From Chloroflexota bacterium (lineage in GTDB: Bacteria; Chloroflexota; Dehalococcoidia; JACPEP01): a DNA stretch of 64,000 nt. Both the position numbers and the translations under genes were made by a program. The stretch covers positions 38,148 to 102,147 of the forward strand of contig JACPEP010000014.1 in the NCBI GenBank assembly GCA_016183425.1, written 5' to 3'. Below, one piece after another: positions 15,360 through 24,107 of the stretch. The notes below the pieces were generated by a model that had not been told where the DNA came from, did not search any database, and saw nothing but the letters and a program-made list of their open reading frames with translations. The stretch's first letter is position 1; each line of letters opens with the position of its first letter.

Positions 15360-15682
15360 AGCACCTCCTAGTGTGATGTCTCATCCTTGAACAATTCCTC
15401 TCCCTTGAGGGGAGAGGTTAGGTGAGGGTGAATTCCCCCTCCCTCTAACTCCCTCCCACCTGGGGGGGGAGAATAATAACGCAACCTATCTATGAGATTA
15501 GATACTAGTGTTTCATATTGCCGACGTCCCCGCCAGTCTATCCCAGGGCCAAAGCTCTGTCAACGGCCGAGGGAAGATGTTTACCATCCTCACATCCGAA
15601 AGCCGAAAGCGGAAAATGAACGACTGGTGTATGATAAGACACGCAAATCAGGAATCTTAACTAATCGAAGGGGGGTATAGCC

Positions 15683-16654
15683 ATGGAAAGCGACCCAAAA
15701 GAGCAGTTGCCTCCACGAAGAGGACATTTCATCCTCTGGCCCACGATTCTCATCCTTTTGGGAGTCTTGTTTCTTTTGAGCAACTTCGGTTTGCTCCCCA
15801 GCGGCTTCTGGGGAACTATCTGGCACTTCTGGCCCGTGATTCTAATCCTCCTGGGTCTGGAAATTCTGTTAACCCGCTCCCTGGGATCCAAAACGTCAGG
15901 CCTCATCTCCATATTGGTCGTCCTGTGTATGGTGCTACTCTTTATTTGGCTTTCTACCACCATGGGAAATGGGCCAACAATCTGGCCGGGACCATGGAAC
16001 TGGAATGTATTGAGTGGCTCAGGGCACGTTATTACGCAACAGAAGGATTTGGCTGGTTTCACCCAGGTTGAGGCCTCAGGCCCCTTGGAAGTTGAGATCG
16101 CCCAGTCCAATACATTTAGCGTCACCGTAACAGTCGATGATAATCTTCTCGATCATGTCGTAGCTTCGGTGGACAGGGAGAAGCTGCGCTTATCCACCGA
16201 GAATCTCAGGCTCTTCTTTGGCTGGCCAACCTTGAAGGCCAGAATTACCATGCCAAGCTTGCGCTCCCTTCGCCTGAGTAGGGCAGTGAAAGGGACAATA
16301 ACCGGATTCAAATCCACCGACGATTTTGCCCTGGAGGTCATGGGAGCGAGCAAACTGGAGGGCAGCTTGGATAGCGGAAACACAAAGATCGATGCTTCGA
16401 GTGCCAGCAGGGTAAATTTAGAGGGCTCCGGCAGTAACGCCGACTTGAAAGCGTCCGGTGCCAGCAAGCTGGAGTTGGGCAATTTCCAGGTCAAGAACGC
16501 CAAGGTCACCGTGGACGGAGCCAGCAGTGCCACCGTAAACGTCACCGGGCGGTTGGATGTGAATGCTAGTGGCGCCTCCAGCGTATATTACCTGGGGAAT
16601 CCCACTCTAGGTGAGGTTAATATAAGTGGCGCATCCAAGTTAGAACGCCGTTAG
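15683..16654 (+). CDS. LiaF-like TM domain plus DUF4097 beta-repeat (putative adhesin-like) protein
   Basis: N-terminal four-TM region (ILWPTILILLGVLFLLSNFGLL...WPVILILLGLEIL). C-terminal repetitive beta-strand segments (KLEGSLDSGNTKIDASSASRVNLEGSGSNADLKASGASKLELGNFQVKNAKVTVDG) typical of DUF4097. Confidence 0.55.
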   Translation: MESDPKEQLPPRRGHFILWPTILILLGVLFLLSNFGLLPSGFWGTIWHFWPVILILLGLEILLTRSLGSKTSGLISILVVLCMVLLFIWLSTTMGNGPTIWPGPWNWNVLSGSGHVITQQKDLAGFTQVEASGPLEVEIAQSNTFSVTVTVDDNLLDHVVASVDREKLRLSTENLRLFFGWPTLKARITMPSLRSLRLSRAVKGTITGFKSTDDFALEVMGASKLEGSLDSGNTKIDASSASRVNLEGSGSNADLKASGASKLELGNFQVKNAKVTVDGASSATVNVTGRLDVNASGASSVYYLGNPTLGEVNISGASKLERR

Positions 16655-16766: not shown

Positions 16767-16856
16767 GGAGAGGTGTCCGAGGGGTTGATGGTGCCGCTCT
16801 CGAAAAGCGGTCTCGCCGCAAGGTGAGCGTGGGTTCGAATCCCACCCTCTCCGCCA
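16767..16856 (+). tRNA. tRNA-Ser (anticodon CGA), long variable arm
   Basis: Acceptor GGAGAGG/CCTCTCC. Anticodon stem CCGCT/AGCGG with loop CTCGAAA. Long variable arm. T-arm GTGGGTTCGAATCCCAC. Discriminator G. CCA encoded. Confidence 0.9.
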
Positions 16857-16898
16857 CACGACGCTGGCCGAAAATGTGAGTACCTAGGTTCTTTTAGC

Positions 16899-16985
16899 GG
16901 AGAGGTGCTGGAGTGGCCGATCAGGCGCGCCTGGAGAGCGCGTGTCGCCGTAAGGTGACCGTGGGTTCGAATCCCACCCTCTCCG
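16899..16985 (+). tRNA. tRNA-Ser (anticodon GGA), long variable arm
   Basis: Same acceptor and T-arm as the first copy. Anticodon stem CGCGC/GCGCG with loop CTGGAGA. No encoded CCA. Confidence 0.9.
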
Positions 16986-17050
16986 TCAGCCTTACGCCAA
17001 GGCTACGGCTGGCAAGCCAGATAGAACACAAAGAAAATGGATGAGCAACT

Positions 17051-17602
17051 ATGAGCGCAAAATCAAAAGAGAAAGCCGTTGTCCTCACTGCTGATCAGTT
17101 TGAAGACATGGAGGTTTTCTTTCCTGTATTTCGTTTGATAGAGGAGGGGTGGCAAGTTGACGTTGCCGCCCCTAAAGTCGAAGAAATTCACGGTGAGAAT
17201 GGCTACTCTTTAGTTCCCGACAAAACCATTGATGAAGTGGACCCCGATGACTATGATCTGCTAGTCATTCCCGGAGGATCTCCCGATGGCGCACCAAGCA
17301 CCGTTAGACATGTTAAAAAGGCTCAGGAAATAGCAAAGGCATTCTTTAACAAAAATAAGCCGGTGGCTTCAATATGTCACGGACCATACACTCTGGTTTC
17401 TGCCGATGTGGTTAAGGGAAGGCATCTAACATCTTATTGGCATGATGGGGTGCCCGAAGAGATAAAACGAGCCGGTGGAATATGGGAAGATAATGAAGTA
17501 GTGGTTGATGACAATTTAGTAACATCACGCTGGCCAATGGATTTGCCTGCCTTTATGAGAGAGATAATAAGCCTCATCAAAAGGTCGAAGAGTAATAAGT
17601 AA
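17051..17602 (+). CDS. DJ-1/PfpI family protein (class I glutamine amidotransferase-like)
   Basis: Nucleophile elbow ASICHGP plus YDLLVIPGG. 183 aa, low GC. Confidence 0.85.
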   Translation: MSAKSKEKAVVLTADQFEDMEVFFPVFRLIEEGWQVDVAAPKVEEIHGENGYSLVPDKTIDEVDPDDYDLLVIPGGSPDGAPSTVRHVKKAQEIAKAFFNKNKPVASICHGPYTLVSADVVKGRHLTSYWHDGVPEEIKRAGGIWEDNEVVVDDNLVTSRWPMDLPAFMREIISLIKRSKSNK

Positions 17603-17686
17603 TAACATCAAACCAGATCTAGCCGAGGTTCCGTCAATAGGTTTGTAAAAGGGATCAAGCAACGGCGAGCATCTCTTCCTGCCTGA

Positions 17687-17854
17687 TTTCAACTCCGTGA
17701 ATTGGTAGCGCCTATTGGCAAACAGATTGAGAACCTACTGGCGCGGAACAGGAACCTCCGTGACACGCGCGACCTGCTATTGCCCAAGCTAATTTCCGGC
17801 GAGATCGAAGTATTGGAGCTGGATATTAAGACGGAAAGGTTGGAACATGAATGA
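17687..17854 (+). pseudogene. hsdS: C-terminal remnant (about 55 aa) of a type I restriction-modification specificity subunit HsdS
   Basis: FQLRELVAPIGKQIENLLARNRNLRDTRDLLLPKLISGEIEVLELD. The R(D)xLLPKLISGEI motif is the conserved HsdS C-terminus. An in-frame TGA at 17684 bounds it. No TRD or N-terminal part is present. Confidence 0.55.
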
Positions 17855-19073
17855 CATTCTATTTCATCAATGTGACCTGATATCCGTCATTCAGAACCAA
17901 GAGCGGAGCATGGCTGCAGAGATTGACGCGCTCCCCGAAAGCCGGCTGTTGAATACATCACTTGATGATCTCTGTGATTACTTTGCTCAGAAGTACAGCA
18001 TCGAGCCGCCTGAAATCAGAGAAGCTGATATCCAAGCTGACTATGGCGATGCAAAGATTGATGTGAGCGGGAGGGTTGAGTATGCTGTGTTTGATAGAAG
18101 CAGGCCCACTTACGTGACGGGAACGAAGCTCACCTTCTACGTACCATTCGAAGGTGACGCGAACCTCTTCAAATGTCGACCGTCAACATTCAACTTTAAT
18201 CCTCCAAGGGGGGAAGTAAGGAATGGTGAACTGGTAGTCACATACGAGCGCACGGTCTCGGATGCCCCGCAAATCGAATCCGAGTTCAAGCGAGACTTGC
18301 AAAATCTGAAAGGATACCTTGACTGGATCACGCGAGACGTGGCACCTTTCAATTCTTCTGTGCGTGAAAAGGCCCGGCAACGCATCGAAGCCAGGCGAGA
18401 AAAGTTGCTGAAGGATAGAGGATTGGCAGAGAAGATCGGCTTTCCGCTAAGAAGAAGAGAGGGATCGCCCCAGACATACGTTGCCCCGCAAGTGAAACGG
18501 AAGATTACTCCAAAGCTGCCGCCTGCATCTGGCGCGCCATTTATGCCAGAGCCGACGCTAGATATGCAGGAGTATGAGCACATACTCTCTGTGATATCCA
18601 ACATGGTACAGGTCATGGAGCGCAGCCCTCAGGCGTTTCGCGGGATGAAGGAAGAAGACCTACGGCAACATTTCCTGGTCCAGTTGAACGGGCAATACGA
18701 AGGCCAAGCTACAGGTGAAACGTTCAATTTCGGAGGTAAGACTGACATTCTAGTACGTGTCGAGGGCAAGAATATCTTCATCGCAGAGTGCAAGTTCTGG
18801 GAAGGGCCGAAATCCCTTAATCGGGCCATTGAGCAGTTGCTCGTCTATGCCAGCTGGCGCGACACCAAGACAGCGCTTCTGATATTCAACAGGGGTAGTA
18901 ATTTGTCCACCGTTCTCAGCAAGCTACCTGAAGTTATGAAAGCACATTCGAACTACAAACGTGATCTCCCGTTCAAGTCAGAAACGGGCTTCCGTTATGC
19001 ATTTCATCACCGGGATGACCCAAATCGGGAGCTTATCCTGTCTGTGTTGGCATTCGAGGTGCCCGCATCATGA
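17847..19073 (+). CDS. Hypothetical 408-aa protein with a C-terminal PD-(D/E)xK (restriction-endonuclease-like) nuclease motif. Candidate defence or abortive-infection effector.
   Basis: The start overlaps the hsdS-remnant stop (ATGAATGA). The C-terminal GGKTDILVRVEGKNIFIAECKFWEG matches the D...(E)xK core. The N-terminal approximately 290 aa have no recognisable motif. Low GC. Confidence 0.5.
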   Translation: MNDILFHQCDLISVIQNQERSMAAEIDALPESRLLNTSLDDLCDYFAQKYSIEPPEIREADIQADYGDAKIDVSGRVEYAVFDRSRPTYVTGTKLTFYVPFEGDANLFKCRPSTFNFNPPRGEVRNGELVVTYERTVSDAPQIESEFKRDLQNLKGYLDWITRDVAPFNSSVREKARQRIEARREKLLKDRGLAEKIGFPLRRREGSPQTYVAPQVKRKITPKLPPASGAPFMPEPTLDMQEYEHILSVISNMVQVMERSPQAFRGMKEEDLRQHFLVQLNGQYEGQATGETFNFGGKTDILVRVEGKNIFIAECKFWEGPKSLNRAIEQLLVYASWRDTKTALLIFNRGSNLSTVLSKLPEVMKAHSNYKRDLPFKSETGFRYAFHHRDDPNRELILSVLAFEVPAS

Positions 19074-19327
19074 CTGTCAATGTAAGGAAATACCCTCTCC
19101 ACCACTTGTCCATCATAGTTCCATGGCACGATTCAGGATGGGCGGGCATTGTATGCCAAGCACCCACGTTCAACGACGCGTGTCTAAAGCTGAAGCGTAT
19201 TGCCGACGGCAGAAATGACGTTAATGTCTTGTCCGCCCAACCCTATGTGCAGCCCCCCGGCTTCGCTACCACCCAGGTGGCTGAACCGAAAGCCGTTAGA
19301 GGGCTCAGTCAAATAAGCTTCCCTTGA
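19070..19327 (+). CDS. Hypothetical 85-aa ORF, translationally coupled (ATGA overlap). Possibly a truncated N-terminus at the island edge.
   Basis: ORF only. The start overlaps the upstream stop. It ends exactly where the high-GC flank resumes. Confidence 0.3.
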   Translation: MTVNVRKYPLHHLSIIVPWHDSGWAGIVCQAPTFNDACLKLKRIADGRNDVNVLSAQPYVQPPGFATTQVAEPKAVRGLSQISFP

Positions 19328-19329
19328 AG

Positions 19330-20161: not shown

Positions 20162-20800
20162 ATGTCCGAAGAACTGGGAAGGATCGAGAGGCCTTCGGCG
20201 GCGGAGTTCAGAGCCGAAAGAAAGCTGTACTTCGTGCCGCTAGTTTTCTCTCCCCGAGAACCGTCAGACCAGCTTGGGGAACAAATCGACCGCTATTGGG
20301 ATCAGGTGGATGCTCAAGTGGCCAACCTGGAGCGAAAGCTGGCCAGCGTAGATAAAGTGTATCATGAGCTGGTGCCCGTGGGCGGCGAGGACGGCGCTAA
20401 AGCCATGGAGGAGCTAAACAAAGGGAGCTACAAGGTTGCCCAGTCCAGACTGGCTCGAGGGGCCAAGCTCCAGCCCATTGAGGATAGCTATCTGCTAGCA
20501 GAGTTCATGGATTGGAGCCGGTGCCTGGCCGTGGGCTTGCAAACGCCAAAAGTGTGGGAACAGGTCTATGGATTCTATACTGAGGCATTGAAAAAAAGAA
20601 ACGAGTACATAGCCCAGCAGATAGATAAGACCTTGGAAAGCGGCCAGGCCGGAATACTGCTCATGAGGGAAGGCCATCAGGTTCAGTTTTCCCAAGACAT
20701 ACAGGTATTCTATGTTTCTCCACCGGCCTTGGACGAAATCGAGCGCTGGCTGAGAGAGCATTCTGACCAAACAGCGGAGGCCGAGGATGCCCAAAAGTAG
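20162..20800 (+). CDS. Hypothetical protein (212 aa), first gene of the PAC2 operon
   Basis: Clean ORF with protein-like composition. No motif recognised. Confidence 0.5.
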   Translation: MSEELGRIERPSAAEFRAERKLYFVPLVFSPREPSDQLGEQIDRYWDQVDAQVANLERKLASVDKVYHELVPVGGEDGAKAMEELNKGSYKVAQSRLARGAKLQPIEDSYLLAEFMDWSRCLAVGLQTPKVWEQVYGFYTEALKKRNEYIAQQIDKTLESGQAGILLMREGHQVQFSQDIQVFYVSPPALDEIERWLREHSDQTAEAEDAQK

Positions 20801-20814
20801 TGAGGGATAAGGGA

Positions 20815-21732
20815 ATGACCGTCAGGCTTCACACCGAACCTCGGCTGGAAAACCCGGTTCTGGTAGCTGGGTGGCCGGGTATTGGCAACATCGGCATCAT
20901 AGCCGTGGACACTTTAAAAGGGATGACTCAAGCCGAGGAATTCGGGGAGATAGAGCCCTGGGACTTTTTCTACCCGCGGAAGGTTCTCATTAGAGATGGC
21001 GAGTTGAAAGACCTGGAGTTCCCCACCAGCAAGTTTTACTTTAAGCGAACGGCAAATCGGGACTTGATCTTCTTCATCGGAGAGGAGCAGCCCCTGGGAG
21101 GCGGAGGGGTCTACGCCGAGGGGGATAAGGCCTATGAAATGGCCAATCTTGTCCTGGACATCGCCCTGAGATTTGGGTGCCAAAAAGTATACACCTCCGG
21201 AGCCGCCGTTTCCCCTATCCACCACACTATGAAACCTAGGGTATGGGCCGTGCCTAACACGGCCCGCCTCATACCTGAGATAAGAAGATATGAAAACACG
21301 GTGCTTATGTCCGATATCGAAGAGCGAGGCGGACAAGGAACCATCACCGGTTTAAATGGTCTTCTCTTGGGGGTAGCCAGAAAAAGGGGCCTGGAGGCTG
21401 TTTGTTTCATGGGAGAGATACCCATCTACCTCCAGGGATTTCACCTTCCCTATCCCAAGGCGTCAAAGTCGGTGCTGGAGGTATTAACTGCTGCCCTGAG
21501 AATCAGCATCCCGACTACAGAACTTTCAACCTTCATTGAACGTACCGATGGAGAGATTGAGAGGCTATACGAGAATTTCCCCCCGGAAATACGGCAACAG
21601 TTGGAAAAGCTAAGGTATGTCACTCACACCAAGGCCCAGTCTCAGGAGCCGGGCCCCATAACCGAGGAAGACAAAAGGGGAATCCTGGAGAACATTGATA
21701 AGTTCTTCAAGAAGGAACCCAAAGGGGACTGA
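20815..21732 (+). CDS. PAC2 (proteasome assembly chaperone 2-like) family protein, paralog 1
   Basis: NPVLVAGWPGIGNIGIIAVDTL and the later GLNGLLLGVA are typical of the PAC2 family. Confidence 0.55.
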   Translation: MTVRLHTEPRLENPVLVAGWPGIGNIGIIAVDTLKGMTQAEEFGEIEPWDFFYPRKVLIRDGELKDLEFPTSKFYFKRTANRDLIFFIGEEQPLGGGGVYAEGDKAYEMANLVLDIALRFGCQKVYTSGAAVSPIHHTMKPRVWAVPNTARLIPEIRRYENTVLMSDIEERGGQGTITGLNGLLLGVARKRGLEAVCFMGEIPIYLQGFHLPYPKASKSVLEVLTAALRISIPTTELSTFIERTDGEIERLYENFPPEIRQQLEKLRYVTHTKAQSQEPGPITEEDKRGILENIDKFFKKEPKGD

Positions 21733-21735
21733 AAA

Positions 21736-22569
21736 TTGACTGAAAAACATCCCTTTACCATCTATTGGGAACCGCCTTTGCAGAACCCCTCCCTCATCGT
21801 GGGCTGGAGCGAGGATGCCGGCAAACTGGGGTCGAAGGTGGTTGACTACCTGACCCAAAAGCTGCCCGCCAAAGAGCTGGCAGAGATGGAACCAACCAGC
21901 TTTTTCCCCCTCGGGGAAGTCGTCGTAGAAGACGACGTGGCTATGTTCCCCACCAGCAAGTTATATTGCTGCCCGGAAAAGAATCTGGTTATCTTCAAAA
22001 GTAGCCTACCCCGGTCCCAGTGGCATAAGTTCCTAAATGCGGTTCTGGATGTGGTAGGCAACTATGGACACCTCTCAGAGGTCTATACCATTGGCAGCAT
22101 GGTTTCTTTGAGTGCCCACACCGTGCCTCGTCAGTTGTTGGCTGTGGTAAATTCAACAGAAATAAAAAGGGCTTTGAGGAAGTACGAGATAGTCGGGAAC
22201 ATGAACTATGAAACCCCGCCTGGCCAAAGGCCGACCCTAAGCTCTTTTCTCCTATGGGTCGCCAAAAGAAGAAACACACCTGCCGCAAGCCTATGGGTAC
22301 CCATACCTTTTTATCTCGTTTCAACGGAAGACCCCTGGGCTTGTCGAAGAGCCCTTGAGTTTCTTGACCAACGACTCAACCTGAGACTGGATTTCAGAGA
22401 CCTGGACGAAGAAGTAGAGAGACAAGCAGCAAAGATAGCTCAGGCAAGGAGCCATTCTCCCCATGTGGATGCCGGCATCAGGAAGTTAGAAAATAACGAG
22501 GGTGTGACCCACGATGAAAGCGAAAGACTTATCCGGGAAATAGAAGAGTTCCTCAAACAAAAGGATTAA
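21736..22569 (+). CDS. PAC2 family protein, paralog 2
   Basis: NPSLIVGWSEDAGKLGSKVVDYL is the same N-terminal motif as paralog 1. The two are tandemly arranged. Confidence 0.55.
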   Translation: MTEKHPFTIYWEPPLQNPSLIVGWSEDAGKLGSKVVDYLTQKLPAKELAEMEPTSFFPLGEVVVEDDVAMFPTSKLYCCPEKNLVIFKSSLPRSQWHKFLNAVLDVVGNYGHLSEVYTIGSMVSLSAHTVPRQLLAVVNSTEIKRALRKYEIVGNMNYETPPGQRPTLSSFLLWVAKRRNTPAASLWVPIPFYLVSTEDPWACRRALEFLDQRLNLRLDFRDLDEEVERQAAKIAQARSHSPHVDAGIRKLENNEGVTHDESERLIREIEEFLKQKD

Positions 22570-22595
22570 AGTTATGCCTATCCCAAACTTGATAT

Positions 22596-24107
22596 GTGTC
22601 CTTTCTTGCGAGAGCTGCTTTGCATGAGCACCCATTAGAAACCAGGCACAATAAAACAGCCTGCTTTCTCCTTGTACTATTGCTGGCCGTTTCCTGTGCC
22701 TCTGGGGAAGACATCCCCCCACCCAGCTCCGGTCTAGCCCTCGGTTCTGGTGCCACCGCCAACGGTTCCGTCAGCACCCCTCCCTTTCCTATTATCACCC
22801 AGCCCCCAATGGCCAATATTGTCAGTCCCCCAATGGCCAAGCCCAACATCATCTTTATCACCATTGACAGCCTGCGCGCCGATGCCCTGGGCGCTTACGG
22901 AAACAACCGAGCCCAAACACCCCACCTGGATGCCCTGGCCAAACAAGGGGTACGTTTTGGCCTGGACATAACGCAGTACCCGCAAACTGACTATTCTCAT
23001 GCCGCCATGTTTACCGGTGCCTCTCCGGCCTCCATTAAAGATACATATCGTACCCCCTATGTACTTAATAGCTCCGATGTACCTACAAAACCTATGACCA
23101 CTTTGGCCGAGATACTAGCTGGCCAAGGATACACCACCGCCGGTATCTATAGCTACGTTGGCCTCACACCGGAACTATCTGGGCTGAACCGAGGCTTCAT
23201 GACTTACCAGTTTGCTTGCCTACCGGCGCCTGAGCAAAAATACCTGGAGCGCCTGTGTGACGGGCGAGCCAATATCACCACCGATGCTGCCCTACAATGG
23301 GTGAAAGATAAGGCGGCGACGCCCTATTTTCTCTGGGTCCATTACCAGGACCCCCACTATCCCTACACGCCGCCTCCACCTTTTGACACCATGTACGGCC
23401 CTCCCTGCCCAGATTGCGTCGATGGCAGCTACGAAACCATCGACCGATTAGGCGCCGGCGAGCCAATCTCGGAATCCAATATCGCCCGCCTGGTGGACCT
23501 TTACTACGGAGAAACCTCCTTTACTGACCAGGAAATAGGCAGACTTTTAGAAAATATTGGAAATGCTCGACTCCTCGACAACACCCTGGTCATCGTCACC
23601 GCCGACCACGGCGAAAGCTTCAATGAACACGGACTCTGGTTTCACCCTGGAATTCTGTACAACCCTGTGGCACGAGTTCCCCTTATTATCAGCTATCCAG
23701 AGACGATACCCGGTGGCTCAGTGGTAGACGCTCTGGTACGCAGCATAGATATTATGCTCACCATTCTTGAGTTGGTGAACATCCCTCCGCCAGAGCAAGC
23801 CGAGGGTAAAAGCCTCTGGCCCCTTATCCTGGGGCTGGAGCAAGAATCAGAAAGGGTAGCTATACTAGAAGAGCGGGACGATAACTGGGTAGCCCTGATC
23901 ACCAAAAACTGGAAATTGATAAGAAACAATGTTACGGGAGGATTGGAGCTTTACGACATGATTATGGATTACGATGAAAGTAACAACCTGGCCTCGATTA
24001 ATCTAGAACAGGCCCTGCAGATGGAGTGGGAGCTTATATCTTGGATGAATAGCCACGGCATCACCGTCCAGCGAGGGCCATTGGCACCCATGGATAGCGT
24101 GCCCTAA
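22596..24107 (+). CDS. Sulfatase-like / alkaline-phosphatase-superfamily lipoprotein (not a formylglycine sulfatase)
   Basis: Lipobox LLLAVSC. The metal-binding N-terminus reads IIFITIDSLRADALGAYG, with no C/S-x-P-x-R. Later motifs are TADHGESFNEHG and YDPH-like. Confidence 0.75.
   Translation: MSFLARAALHEHPLETRHNKTACFLLVLLLAVSCASGEDIPPPSSGLALGSGATANGSVSTPPFPIITQPPMANIVSPPMAKPNIIFITIDSLRADALGAYGNNRAQTPHLDALAKQGVRFGLDITQYPQTDYSHAAMFTGASPASIKDTYRTPYVLNSSDVPTKPMTTLAEILAGQGYTTAGIYSYVGLTPELSGLNRGFMTYQFACLPAPEQKYLERLCDGRANITTDAALQWVKDKAATPYFLWVHYQDPHYPYTPPPPFDTMYGPPCPDCVDGSYETIDRLGAGEPISESNIARLVDLYYGETSFTDQEIGRLLENIGNARLLDNTLVIVTADHGESFNEHGLWFHPGILYNPVARVPLIISYPETIPGGSVVDALVRSIDIMLTILELVNIPPPEQAEGKSLWPLILGLEQESERVAILEERDDNWVALITKNWKLIRNNVTGGLELYDMIMDYDESNNLASINLEQALQMEWELISWMNSHGITVQRGPLAPMDSVP

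What the first reader, a model, noticed from the sequence alone, without database searches (positions are those of the whole stretch)
16986..19329. Low-GC island beside tandem tRNA-Ser genes carrying a decayed type I RM locus and a coupled uncharacterised nuclease-domain gene
GC composition falls from about 60% to about 45-48% exactly between the 3' end of tRNA-Ser(GGA) and the start of the high-GC YtxH gene. Inside are a PfpI gene, a 55-aa C-terminal hsdS remnant and a 408-aa ORF whose ATG overlaps the hsdS stop. No hsdM, hsdR or integrase is present. Genes embedded right after hsdS in type I RM operons are frequently accessory anti-phage effectors such as PrrC, RloC or Abi proteins. The RM scaffold has been lost here, but the effector-like gene is intact.
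Basis: partly seen in the sequence, partly recalled or inferred. Interest (0 to 1): 0.8.

Follow-up and report, generated by a model that had tools for sequence, protein, structure and literature searches.

The report
Orphaned defence-candidate nuclease from decayed restriction operon
A foreign-looking stretch next to two serine tRNA genes is the leftover of a five-gene restriction-modification operon in which only one embedded gene survives whole: a nuclease from a family already catalogued as an untested anti-phage candidate (PADLOC PDC-S54), so this is a tidy but fairly ordinary case.

Summary
Window 16988-19329 has 49.3% GC against 57.1% for the window. It is the lowest-GC stretch of its length. 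It contains a PfpI gene, a C-terminal hsdS fragment and an intact 408-aa ORF whose ATG overlaps the hsdS stop by 8 nt.

The 408-aa protein is a full-length member of PADLOC candidate family PDC-S54 (E 6.6e-162). A metagenome relative (74% identical) sits in an intact operon, hsdM-hsdS-PDC-S54-PDC-S68-hsdR, with the same 8-nt and 4-nt overlaps. The window is therefore a two-sided deletion remnant of that operon.

PDC-S54 has three parts:
- an N-terminal domain with no solved structural relative;
- a conserved basic/proline-rich linker;

The family is large, spans bacteria and archaea, and has no fixed partner. Only about 12-20% of loci lie in type I RM operons. It most likely acts alone as a defence DNase, but this is untested. 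It is a new member of a known candidate family, of moderate-to-low interest.

The parts
16767..16856 (+). tRNA-Ser (anticodon CGA); left flank, not part of the island
   Evidence: ARAGORN; Rfam RF00005, 49.9 bits
16898..16987 (+). tRNA-Ser (anticodon GGA). Its 3' end marks the left compositional boundary.
   Evidence: ARAGORN; Rfam RF00005, 51.2 bits; GC drops from 16988 onward
17051..17602 (+). DJ-1/PfpI family gene (183 aa). It is the most compositionally deviant gene of the window and is probably foreign. It is not part of the RM remnant.
   Evidence: Pfam PF01965, 3.7e-51; NCBIfam TIGR01382, 1.7e-50; GC 0.447, GC3 0.415 against a window mean of 0.648 (sd 0.073), and the lowest codon-usage score
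17645..17854 (+). hsdS pseudogene: C-terminal fragment of a type I RM specificity subunit, with an in-frame stop. The open frame is 17687-17854 and the TTG ORF is 17702-17854. The left deletion junction is at about 17640-17700.
   Evidence: PADLOC Specificity_I, E 9.6e-10, aligned to profile positions 410-453 of 458; tblastn with HsdS of L090 (aa 345-410) gives 50% identity over 17645-17842; translation
17847..19073 (+). Intact 408-aa gene, member of PADLOC candidate family PDC-S54. The ATG overlaps the hsdS stop by 8 nt.
   Evidence: PADLOC PDLC05036, E 6.6e-162, residues 2-406 on profile 2-407 of 410; 74% identical to the L090 homolog; more than 4,933 homologs; 6,306 representatives of 50%-identity clusters
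17847..18437 (+). PDC-S54 N-terminal domain (aa 1-197): alpha/beta core plus a ~55-residue helix. No solved structural relative was found. The domain also occurs as a separate 201-aa protein elsewhere.
18438..18563 (+). PDC-S54 linker (aa 198-239): predicted disordered, basic and proline-rich, but conserved in sequence
   Evidence: pLDDT below 50 for residues 205-235; top-residue frequency 0.63 against 0.54 for the N-domain over 77 proteins
18564..19070 (+). PDC-S54 C-terminal PD-(D/E)xK nuclease domain (aa 240-408). Catalytic codons: D300 at 18744-18746, E314 at 18786-18788, K316 at 18792-18794.
19070..19327 (+). Truncated PDC-S68 gene. The ATG overlaps the PDC-S54 stop (ATGA). Only codons ~7-50 (19088-19219) are homologous to the N-terminus of a ~1,220-aa SF1 helicase-like protein. 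The right deletion junction is at about 19220, and the remaining 35 codons are unrelated read-through.
   Evidence: PADLOC PDC-S68 PDLC05065, E 5.2e-14, residues 8-51 on profile 3-46 of 1221; tblastn with the L090 1,229-aa protein (aa 4-47) gives 68% identity over 19088-19219; GC steps from 0.507 to 0.564 at 19220

Best explanation
The segment 17645-19220 is what remains of a horizontally acquired five-gene type I restriction-modification operon, hsdM-hsdS-PDC-S54-PDC-S68-hsdR.

Two deletions removed most of it. One took hsdM and most of hsdS. The other took nearly all of PDC-S68 plus hsdR. Only the embedded 408-aa gene survives intact.

That gene belongs to the widespread, horizontally mobile PDC-S54 family. 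I infer that it is a self-contained defence DNase with three parts:
- the C-terminal BamHI/NucC-like PD-(D/E)xK domain cuts DNA;
- the N-terminal domain, a transferable module also found next to a caspase-helicase protein, senses or regulates;
- the conserved linker couples the two.

Because most family members are not next to any RM system, the protein probably does not need HsdMSR. It could therefore still be functional here, perhaps transcribed together with the upstream PfpI gene.

Shown: the remnant anatomy, family membership, the nuclease fold and motif, and the variable genomic contexts. Inferred: nuclease activity, the anti-phage role, the sensing role of the N-domain, and expression in this genome.

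The confidence of 0.6 is for the whole statement. The remnant anatomy alone is about 0.9, and the stand-alone defence DNase role about 0.55.
For: Remnant anatomy:
- The intact operon in L090 has the same 8-nt hsdS/S54 overlap and the same 4-nt S54/S68 overlap, confirmed by PADLOC.
- DNA and protein alignments define the junctions.
- L091, L103, L104, L114, L139 and L157 show hsdM-hsdS-S54-hsdR.
- No hsdM, hsdR or recombinase is present in the window.

Foreign origin: this is the lowest-GC stretch of the window, GC3 and codon usage are atypical, and GC steps at the homology boundaries.

Autonomy and mobility:
- The family has 6,306 cluster representatives of uniform ~405-420 aa.
- There are 456 hits in species genomes across many bacterial phyla and archaea.
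- No neighbour is conserved. The commonest adjacent family is HsdS, in 5 of 75 loci. Others are integrases, NYN, GmrSD and PDC-S39.
- Type I RM parts occur in 10 of 80 genome loci and 12 of 80 metagenome loci.
- Homologs occur on 27 plasmids and in 2 phage records.

Modularity of the N-domain: a stand-alone 201-aa homolog lies directly upstream of a Peptidase_C14 + DEAD helicase protein in 4 of 4 contexts examined.

Against: - No experiment on PDC-S54 was found in the searchable literature.
- The N-domain has no informative structural match, so the sensing role is a guess.
- No sigma-70-like promoter was found in the 245 nt upstream of the gene, and the operon's own promoter is deleted. Expression here is unproven.
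- Survival of the gene could be chance rather than selection.
- The closest relatives on long contigs are mostly RM-embedded (L090, L091, L103, L104). RM-dependence within this particular clade is therefore not excluded.
Confidence: 0.6

Rival explanations
1. PDC-S54 is an RM-dependent accessory that works like PrrC. It would be held latent by the type I RM complex and released when a phage inhibits restriction. Without HsdMSR, the copy in this window would be a functionless relic awaiting decay, or would be constitutively off.
For: The gene sits between hsdS and hsdR with translational-coupling overlaps in the closest relatives. HsdS is the most frequent adjacent family. The PrrC precedent is described.
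Against: About 80-88% of sampled loci have no type I RM component within 8 kb. Some copies stand alone on plasmids or near unrelated defence genes. There is no ABC ATPase or PrrC/RloC model match. The ORF and catalytic residues remain intact, and the sequence is identical in contigs from five sequencing runs.
Confidence: 0.15
2. PDC-S54 is a selfish or mobile-element-serving nuclease cassette. It would serve, for example, in competition between mobile elements, in plasmid exclusion or as an addiction module. It would insert into operons and spread horizontally without primarily protecting the host from phages.
For: The distribution is sporadic and crosses phyla, including archaea. Neighbours include recombinases in 10 of 80 loci, relaxase and coupling proteins, and serine recombinases. 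The gene is present on conjugative plasmids. It is inserted precisely into different operons.
Against: There is no conserved partner such as an antitoxin or immunity gene. No terminal repeats or conserved flanks were seen. The neighbours are enriched for defence genes rather than transposition genes. The same features describe bona fide defence genes.
Confidence: 0.15
3. The low-GC segment is native sequence, and the 408-aa gene is a housekeeping repair or recombination nuclease.
For: Other parts of the window also dip to about 0.50 GC (15450-16200 and 20400-22600). Neighbouring genes on both sides are housekeeping.
Against: This is the lowest-GC stretch in the window. It is flanked by RM and PDC-S68 pseudogene fragments. 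Homologs were found in only 456 places among the genomes of 185,579 species, with no conserved context. Synteny around the flanking ORF212 in related Chloroflexota lacks this gene.
Confidence: 0.03

Closest known systems
PADLOC phage defence candidate PDC-S54 (Payne et al., bioRxiv 10.1101/2024.01.29.577857)
   Same: Full-length match to the family HMM (E 6.6e-162). It is a single gene and, in its ancestry, was embedded in a type I RM operon, as in the discovery criterion.
   Different: Here the RM scaffold has been deleted, so the gene is an orphan. The family itself has no tested function.
BamHI/BglII/BstYI-type restriction endonucleases and the CBASS effector NucC (PD-(D/E)xK fold)
   Different: Sequence identity is only 7-14%. 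There is no cognate methyltransferase of its own and no cyclic-nucleotide system nearby. The protein carries an extra ~200-aa N-domain and a conserved linker. Foldseek was not significant.
PrrC / RloC (anticodon nucleases embedded in type I RM operons)
   Same: The genomic logic is the same: an effector gene nested among hsd genes, in the same orientation and coupled to them.
   Different: PrrC and RloC are ABC-ATPase RNases that depend on the RM complex. PDC-S54 has no ATPase, has a DNase-type fold, and is mostly found away from RM.
Single-protein 'variable N-terminal domain + PD-(D/E)xK' defence nucleases such as Shedu (SduA)
   Different: No Pfam DUF4263 or PADLOC Shedu model matches. The N-domain is unrelated to anything solved.

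Membership tests
PADLOC PDC-S54 | Full-length match to the family HMM PDLC05036 | tested here: met
   E 6.6e-162, 537.6 bits, residues 2-406 on profile 2-407 of 410
PADLOC PDC-S54 | Family contains members embedded in BREX, DISARM or type I RM systems | tested here: met
   hsdM-hsdS-S54-(S68)-hsdR in L090, L091, L103, L104, L114, L139 and L157; the criterion is described
PADLOC PDC-S54 | Anti-phage activity | not testable with these tools
   The PDCs are described as untested. No paper mentioning PDC-S54 was found.
PD-(D/E)xK nuclease superfamily | Restriction-endonuclease-like alpha-beta core fold | tested here: met
PD-(D/E)xK nuclease superfamily | Catalytic D ... (D/E)-x-K on consecutive strands | tested here: met
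   D300 lies on strand 301-305 and E314-C-K316 on strand 308-317. All three are invariant in 45 and 77 homologs and present in the window protein.
Type I restriction-modification system | Intact hsdM, hsdS and hsdR genes | tested here: not met
   Only the last 50-66 codons of hsdS remain, with an in-frame stop. tblastn found no HsdM or HsdR match anywhere in the window.
PrrC/RloC-type RM-embedded anticodon nuclease | N-terminal ABC-ATPase domain with a C-terminal anticodon nuclease domain | tested here: not met
   No PrrC, RloC or ATPase model was hit in PADLOC, Pfam or NCBIfam
PADLOC PDC-S68 | Full-length ~1,200-aa SF1 (RecD/Dda-like) helicase-type protein | tested here: not met
   The 85-aa ORF matches only profile positions 3-46 of 1221. 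The intact 1,229-aa version is in L090.
tRNA-integrated genomic island | Integrase plus a direct repeat of the tRNA 3' end at the far boundary | tested here: not met
   No recombinase by tblastn. The tRNA 3' end matches only the two tRNA genes at up to 3 mismatches. The only short repeat, 14 nt at 19092-19105, lies in conserved coding sequence.
tRNA-integrated genomic island | Compositional deviation bounded by the tRNA | tested here: met
   GC 0.493 against 0.571, the lowest 0.07% of windows, starting right after 16987

The most novel reading that the evidence does not exclude
PDC-S54 would be a previously uncharacterised class of autonomous immune nuclease. Its N-terminal domain, a fold with no solved relative, would be a portable sensor or adaptor shared with a separate, undescribed two-gene system (a 201-aa protein plus a caspase-DEAD-helicase protein). 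Its conserved 'disordered' basic/proline linker would be the switch that releases the BamHI/NucC-like DNase. Survival of this gene while both flanks of the operon were deleted would then reflect selection for stand-alone immunity.
Probability: 0.3. Interest if true: 0.6.

Novelty: new member of a known kind. Interest (0 to 1): 0.35.

Why it matters
For this genome, it shows how a defence operon erodes. The restriction machinery and a large helicase-like gene were lost, and one embedded gene was kept intact. That pattern is indirect evidence that the embedded gene can pay its way alone.

More broadly, PDC-S54 is a very large family, with thousands of clusters across bacteria and archaea, on plasmids and occasionally in phages. 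Its function has never been tested. The domain map given here makes it straightforward to test: a nuclease with identified catalytic residues, an N-domain of unknown fold that also pairs with a caspase-helicase protein, and a conserved linker.

The finding does not reveal a new kind of system.

Tried and rejected
- Empty-site test. I looked for related Chloroflexota loci with tRNA-Ser next to YtxH and no island. Homologs of the flanking ORF212 at 65-69% identity have different upstream neighbours, so no comparison was possible. Contigs carrying the identical YtxH all have the same remnant.
- att-site search. No repeat of the tRNA-Ser 3' end lies outside the tRNA genes. Short repeats in the region are at chance level or within coding sequence.
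- PDC-S68 as an obligate partner of PDC-S54. Rejected: S68 lies downstream only in L090 and, as a remnant, in the window, out of about 165 loci.
- A conserved small neighbour (antitoxin or immunity gene). None was found by all-against-all clustering of neighbours.
- Sequence search of the PDB with the family profile gave no hit even at E <= 10.
- Foldseek against the PDB gave nothing significant. The afdb50 library was unavailable.
- Pfam and NCBIfam gave no family for the 408-aa protein. PHROGs gave only a weak C-domain hit of unknown function.
- Literature. No paper mentions PDC-S54 or PDC-S68. The supplementary table with PDC assignments is truncated in the held copy.
- Promoter scan. No sigma-70-like site lies upstream of the gene and no terminator follows PfpI. 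This is not decisive for a Chloroflexi genome.
Full report
**1. The observation**

ARAGORN and Rfam confirm two tandem tRNA-Ser genes at 16767-16856 (CGA) and 16898-16987 (GGA).

Composition:
- The stretch 16988-19329 has 49.3% GC against 57.1% for the 64-kb window.
- Only 0.07% of all windows of the same length are as low, and the minimum starts at 17014.
- The drop is uneven. PfpI is 44.7% GC (GC3 0.415, the lowest of 49 ORFs; window mean 0.648, sd 0.073). The 408-aa gene is 50.4% GC (GC3 0.564, fifth lowest).
- On the right, GC steps from 0.507 to 0.564 at about 19220 and reaches 0.598 in the YtxH gene.

- PfpI at 17051-17602 (Pfam 3.7e-51).
- A C-terminal hsdS fragment. The stop-to-stop frame 17687-17854 is 55 codons. 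PADLOC Specificity_I gives E 1e-9, aligned only to the last ~45 profile positions.
- A 408-aa ORF at 17847-19073 whose ATG overlaps the hsdS stop by 8 nt.

tblastn with HsdM, HsdR, tyrosine-integrase and serine-recombinase queries found nothing in the window.

**2.

An 85-aa ORF at 19070-19327 starts with an ATG that overlaps the stop of the 408-aa gene (ATGA). Its residues 8-51 match the first 46 positions of PADLOC PDC-S68, a ~1,220-aa protein (E 5e-14). The rest is unrelated read-through. The 408-aa gene therefore has gene fragments on both sides.

**3. The ancestral state**

The 408-aa protein matches PADLOC PDC-S54 over its full length (E 6.6e-162). It has no Pfam or NCBIfam family.

- A JGI metagenome contig (L090) encodes a 74%-identical homolog. 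It carries hsdM (521 aa), hsdS (413 aa), PDC-S54 (407 aa), a 1,229-aa PDC-S68 protein and hsdR (1,059 aa) in one orientation.
- L090 has the same 8-nt hsdS/S54 overlap and the same 4-nt S54/S68 overlap as the window. The PDC-S68 protein there scores PADLOC E = 0 and carries the Pfam domains AAA_19, AAA_30 and UvrD_C_2.
- Window DNA aligns to L090 at 68.6% identity over 17710-18994.
- HsdS of L090 (aa 345-410) aligns to window 17645-17842. PDC-S68 of L090 (aa 4-47) aligns to window 19088-19219.

The window is thus a two-sided deletion derivative. More than 2.7 kb (hsdM and most of hsdS) is missing on the left. About 6.7 kb (most of PDC-S68 and all of hsdR) is missing on the right.

The same remnant occurs at 99.98-100% identity in contigs from five sequencing runs. 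The source is a Chloroflexi MAG: the flanking ORF212 is 100% identical to NCBI HYU86_04295.

**4. The family and its contexts**

- Size: more than 4,933 homologs at 90% clustering and 6,306 representatives of 50%-identity clusters at E <= 1e-3, of which 2,336 reach E <= 1e-30. Those listed are almost all 400-420 aa and match over their full length.
- Spread: pattern scans found 456 places among the genomes of 185,579 species, in many bacterial phyla and in archaea (Promethearchaeota, Bathyarchaeia). Homologs also occur in 27 plasmid records and 2 phage records, always annotated 'hypothetical protein'.
- Neighbours: clustering the neighbours in 80 genome loci found no conserved partner. The largest neighbour cluster occurs in 8 loci.
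- Among the 150 immediately adjacent genes, the most frequent family is HsdS (5). NYN (4), phage integrase (4), GmrSD (2), PDC-S39 (2), AbiEii-like ATPase (2) and Fic (2) follow.
- Type I RM components lie within 8 kb in 10 of 80 genome loci and 12 of 80 metagenome loci. The arrangement hsdM-hsdS-S54-hsdR recurs.
- PDC-S68 follows PDC-S54 only in L090 and, as a remnant, in the window.
- PDC families were defined by Payne et al. as untested candidates embedded in BREX, DISARM or type I RM systems. I found no paper that mentions PDC-S54.

**5. Protein anatomy**

AlphaFold on a 45-sequence alignment (pLDDT 80) gives three parts:
- N-domain, aa 1-197: an alpha/beta core plus a ~55-residue helix. 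Modelled alone it reaches pLDDT 92.
- Linker: low confidence over residues 205-235.
- C-domain, aa 240-405.

The C-domain is nuclease-like.
- None of these appear when the N-domain is searched alone, so they map to the C-domain.
- D300 sits at the start of one strand and E314-x-K316 on the next. All three are invariant and present in the window protein.

Across 77 homologs the C-domain is the most conserved part (mean top-residue frequency 0.74). The linker, predicted to be disordered, is more conserved (0.63) than the folded N-domain (0.54).

**6. The N-domain as a module**

tblastn on plasmids found matches that cover only the N-terminal half of the protein.
- In Bosea and Rhodopseudomonas plasmids, a Caballeronia chromosome and two metagenome contigs, a 201-213-aa protein matches PDC-S54 profile positions 10-199 (E 1e-33 and 3e-31).
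- It lies directly upstream of a 1,033-1,040-aa Peptidase_C14 + DEAD/HamB-like helicase protein.
- TIR, Upx, PLD, reverse-transcriptase and ThiF/ubiquitin-like genes lie nearby.
- This stand-alone family has at least 124 clusters.

The same module therefore pairs with two different effector types, which fits a sensing or adaptor role.

**7. Mechanism**

Shown:
- the remnant anatomy;
- family membership;
- the nuclease fold and catalytic motif;
- the absence of a fixed partner;
- horizontal spread.

Inferred:
- PDC-S54 is a latent DNase;
- it acts without HsdMSR, because 80-88% of loci lack RM;
- the N-domain and linker control the nuclease;
- the copy here may be co-transcribed with PfpI. No terminator follows PfpI and no promoter-like site lies upstream of the gene.

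The PrrC-like guard model remains possible for this clade, because the closest relatives are RM-embedded. A role in competition between mobile elements, rather than in phage defence, is also not excluded.

**8. The island question**

Composition supports a foreign origin, most strongly for PfpI.
- There is no integrase, no att repeat and no comparable empty site.
- Integration at the tRNA therefore remains unproven.
- PfpI differs in composition from the RM remnant and is absent from the related operons, so it may have arrived separately.

**9. Verdict**

However, the gene belongs to a candidate family already in PADLOC, and a decayed RM operon is common. I rate this a new member of a known kind, with moderate-to-low interest.

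The residual interest lies in three things: the untested family itself, its N-domain of unknown fold that is shared with a caspase-helicase module, and the conserved linker.

Noticed in passing
L098:5992-9709; L099:5953-9665; L100:7001-10749; L101:7001-10713: A stand-alone 201-213-aa homolog of the PDC-S54 N-terminal domain lies directly upstream of a 1,033-1,040-aa Peptidase_C14 (caspase) + DEAD/HamB-like helicase protein in 4 of 4 contexts examined. Neighbours include TIR, Upx, PLD, RVT_1, ThiF/Multi_ubiq and FRG genes. The small protein matches no PADLOC model other than the N half of PDC-S54. This looks like a distinct two-gene defence-island module.
   Followed up: partly
window 18438-18563 (aa 198-239 of the 408-aa protein): The linker GFPLRRR..P.TY..P.VKRKI.P.LPP.S..P..PEPTLD is predicted to be disordered (pLDDT below 50). 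Across 77 homologs it is nevertheless more conserved than the folded N-domain (0.63 against 0.54). Its function is unexplained.
   Followed up: partly
window 17051-17602: The PfpI/DJ-1 gene is the most compositionally deviant gene of the window (GC 0.447, GC3 0.415, more than 3 sd below the mean). It is more AT-rich than the RM remnant beside it and is absent from the related operons. It is probably a separate horizontal acquisition. It also matches phage families (phrog_5908, 1.9e-26).
   Followed up: partly
L090:332-2945: In L090, the intact operon hsdM-hsdS-PDC-S54-PDC-S68-hsdR lies next to a PD-Lambda-2 system. The evidence is PADLOC PD-Lambda-2_B at 2.5e-151 and PD-Lambda-2_C at 3.8e-46, plus a HigB-like toxin gene. 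This neighbourhood is a typical defence island.
   Followed up: no
window 19092-19105: A 14-nt sequence (ACCCTCTCCACCAC) matches the 3' end of tRNA-Ser(CGA) with one mismatch. It lies inside the conserved N-terminal coding sequence of the PDC-S68 remnant (KYPLHHL; the L090 protein has KYPLRHL). I take it as a chance match, not an att site.
   Followed up: yes
window 20162-22569: ORF212 and the two PAC2-family genes downstream of YtxH form a block conserved in Dehalococcoidia/Chloroflexota relatives (L094, L095). The region upstream of ORF212 differs in every relative examined, so this neighbourhood is variable across the lineage.
   Followed up: partly
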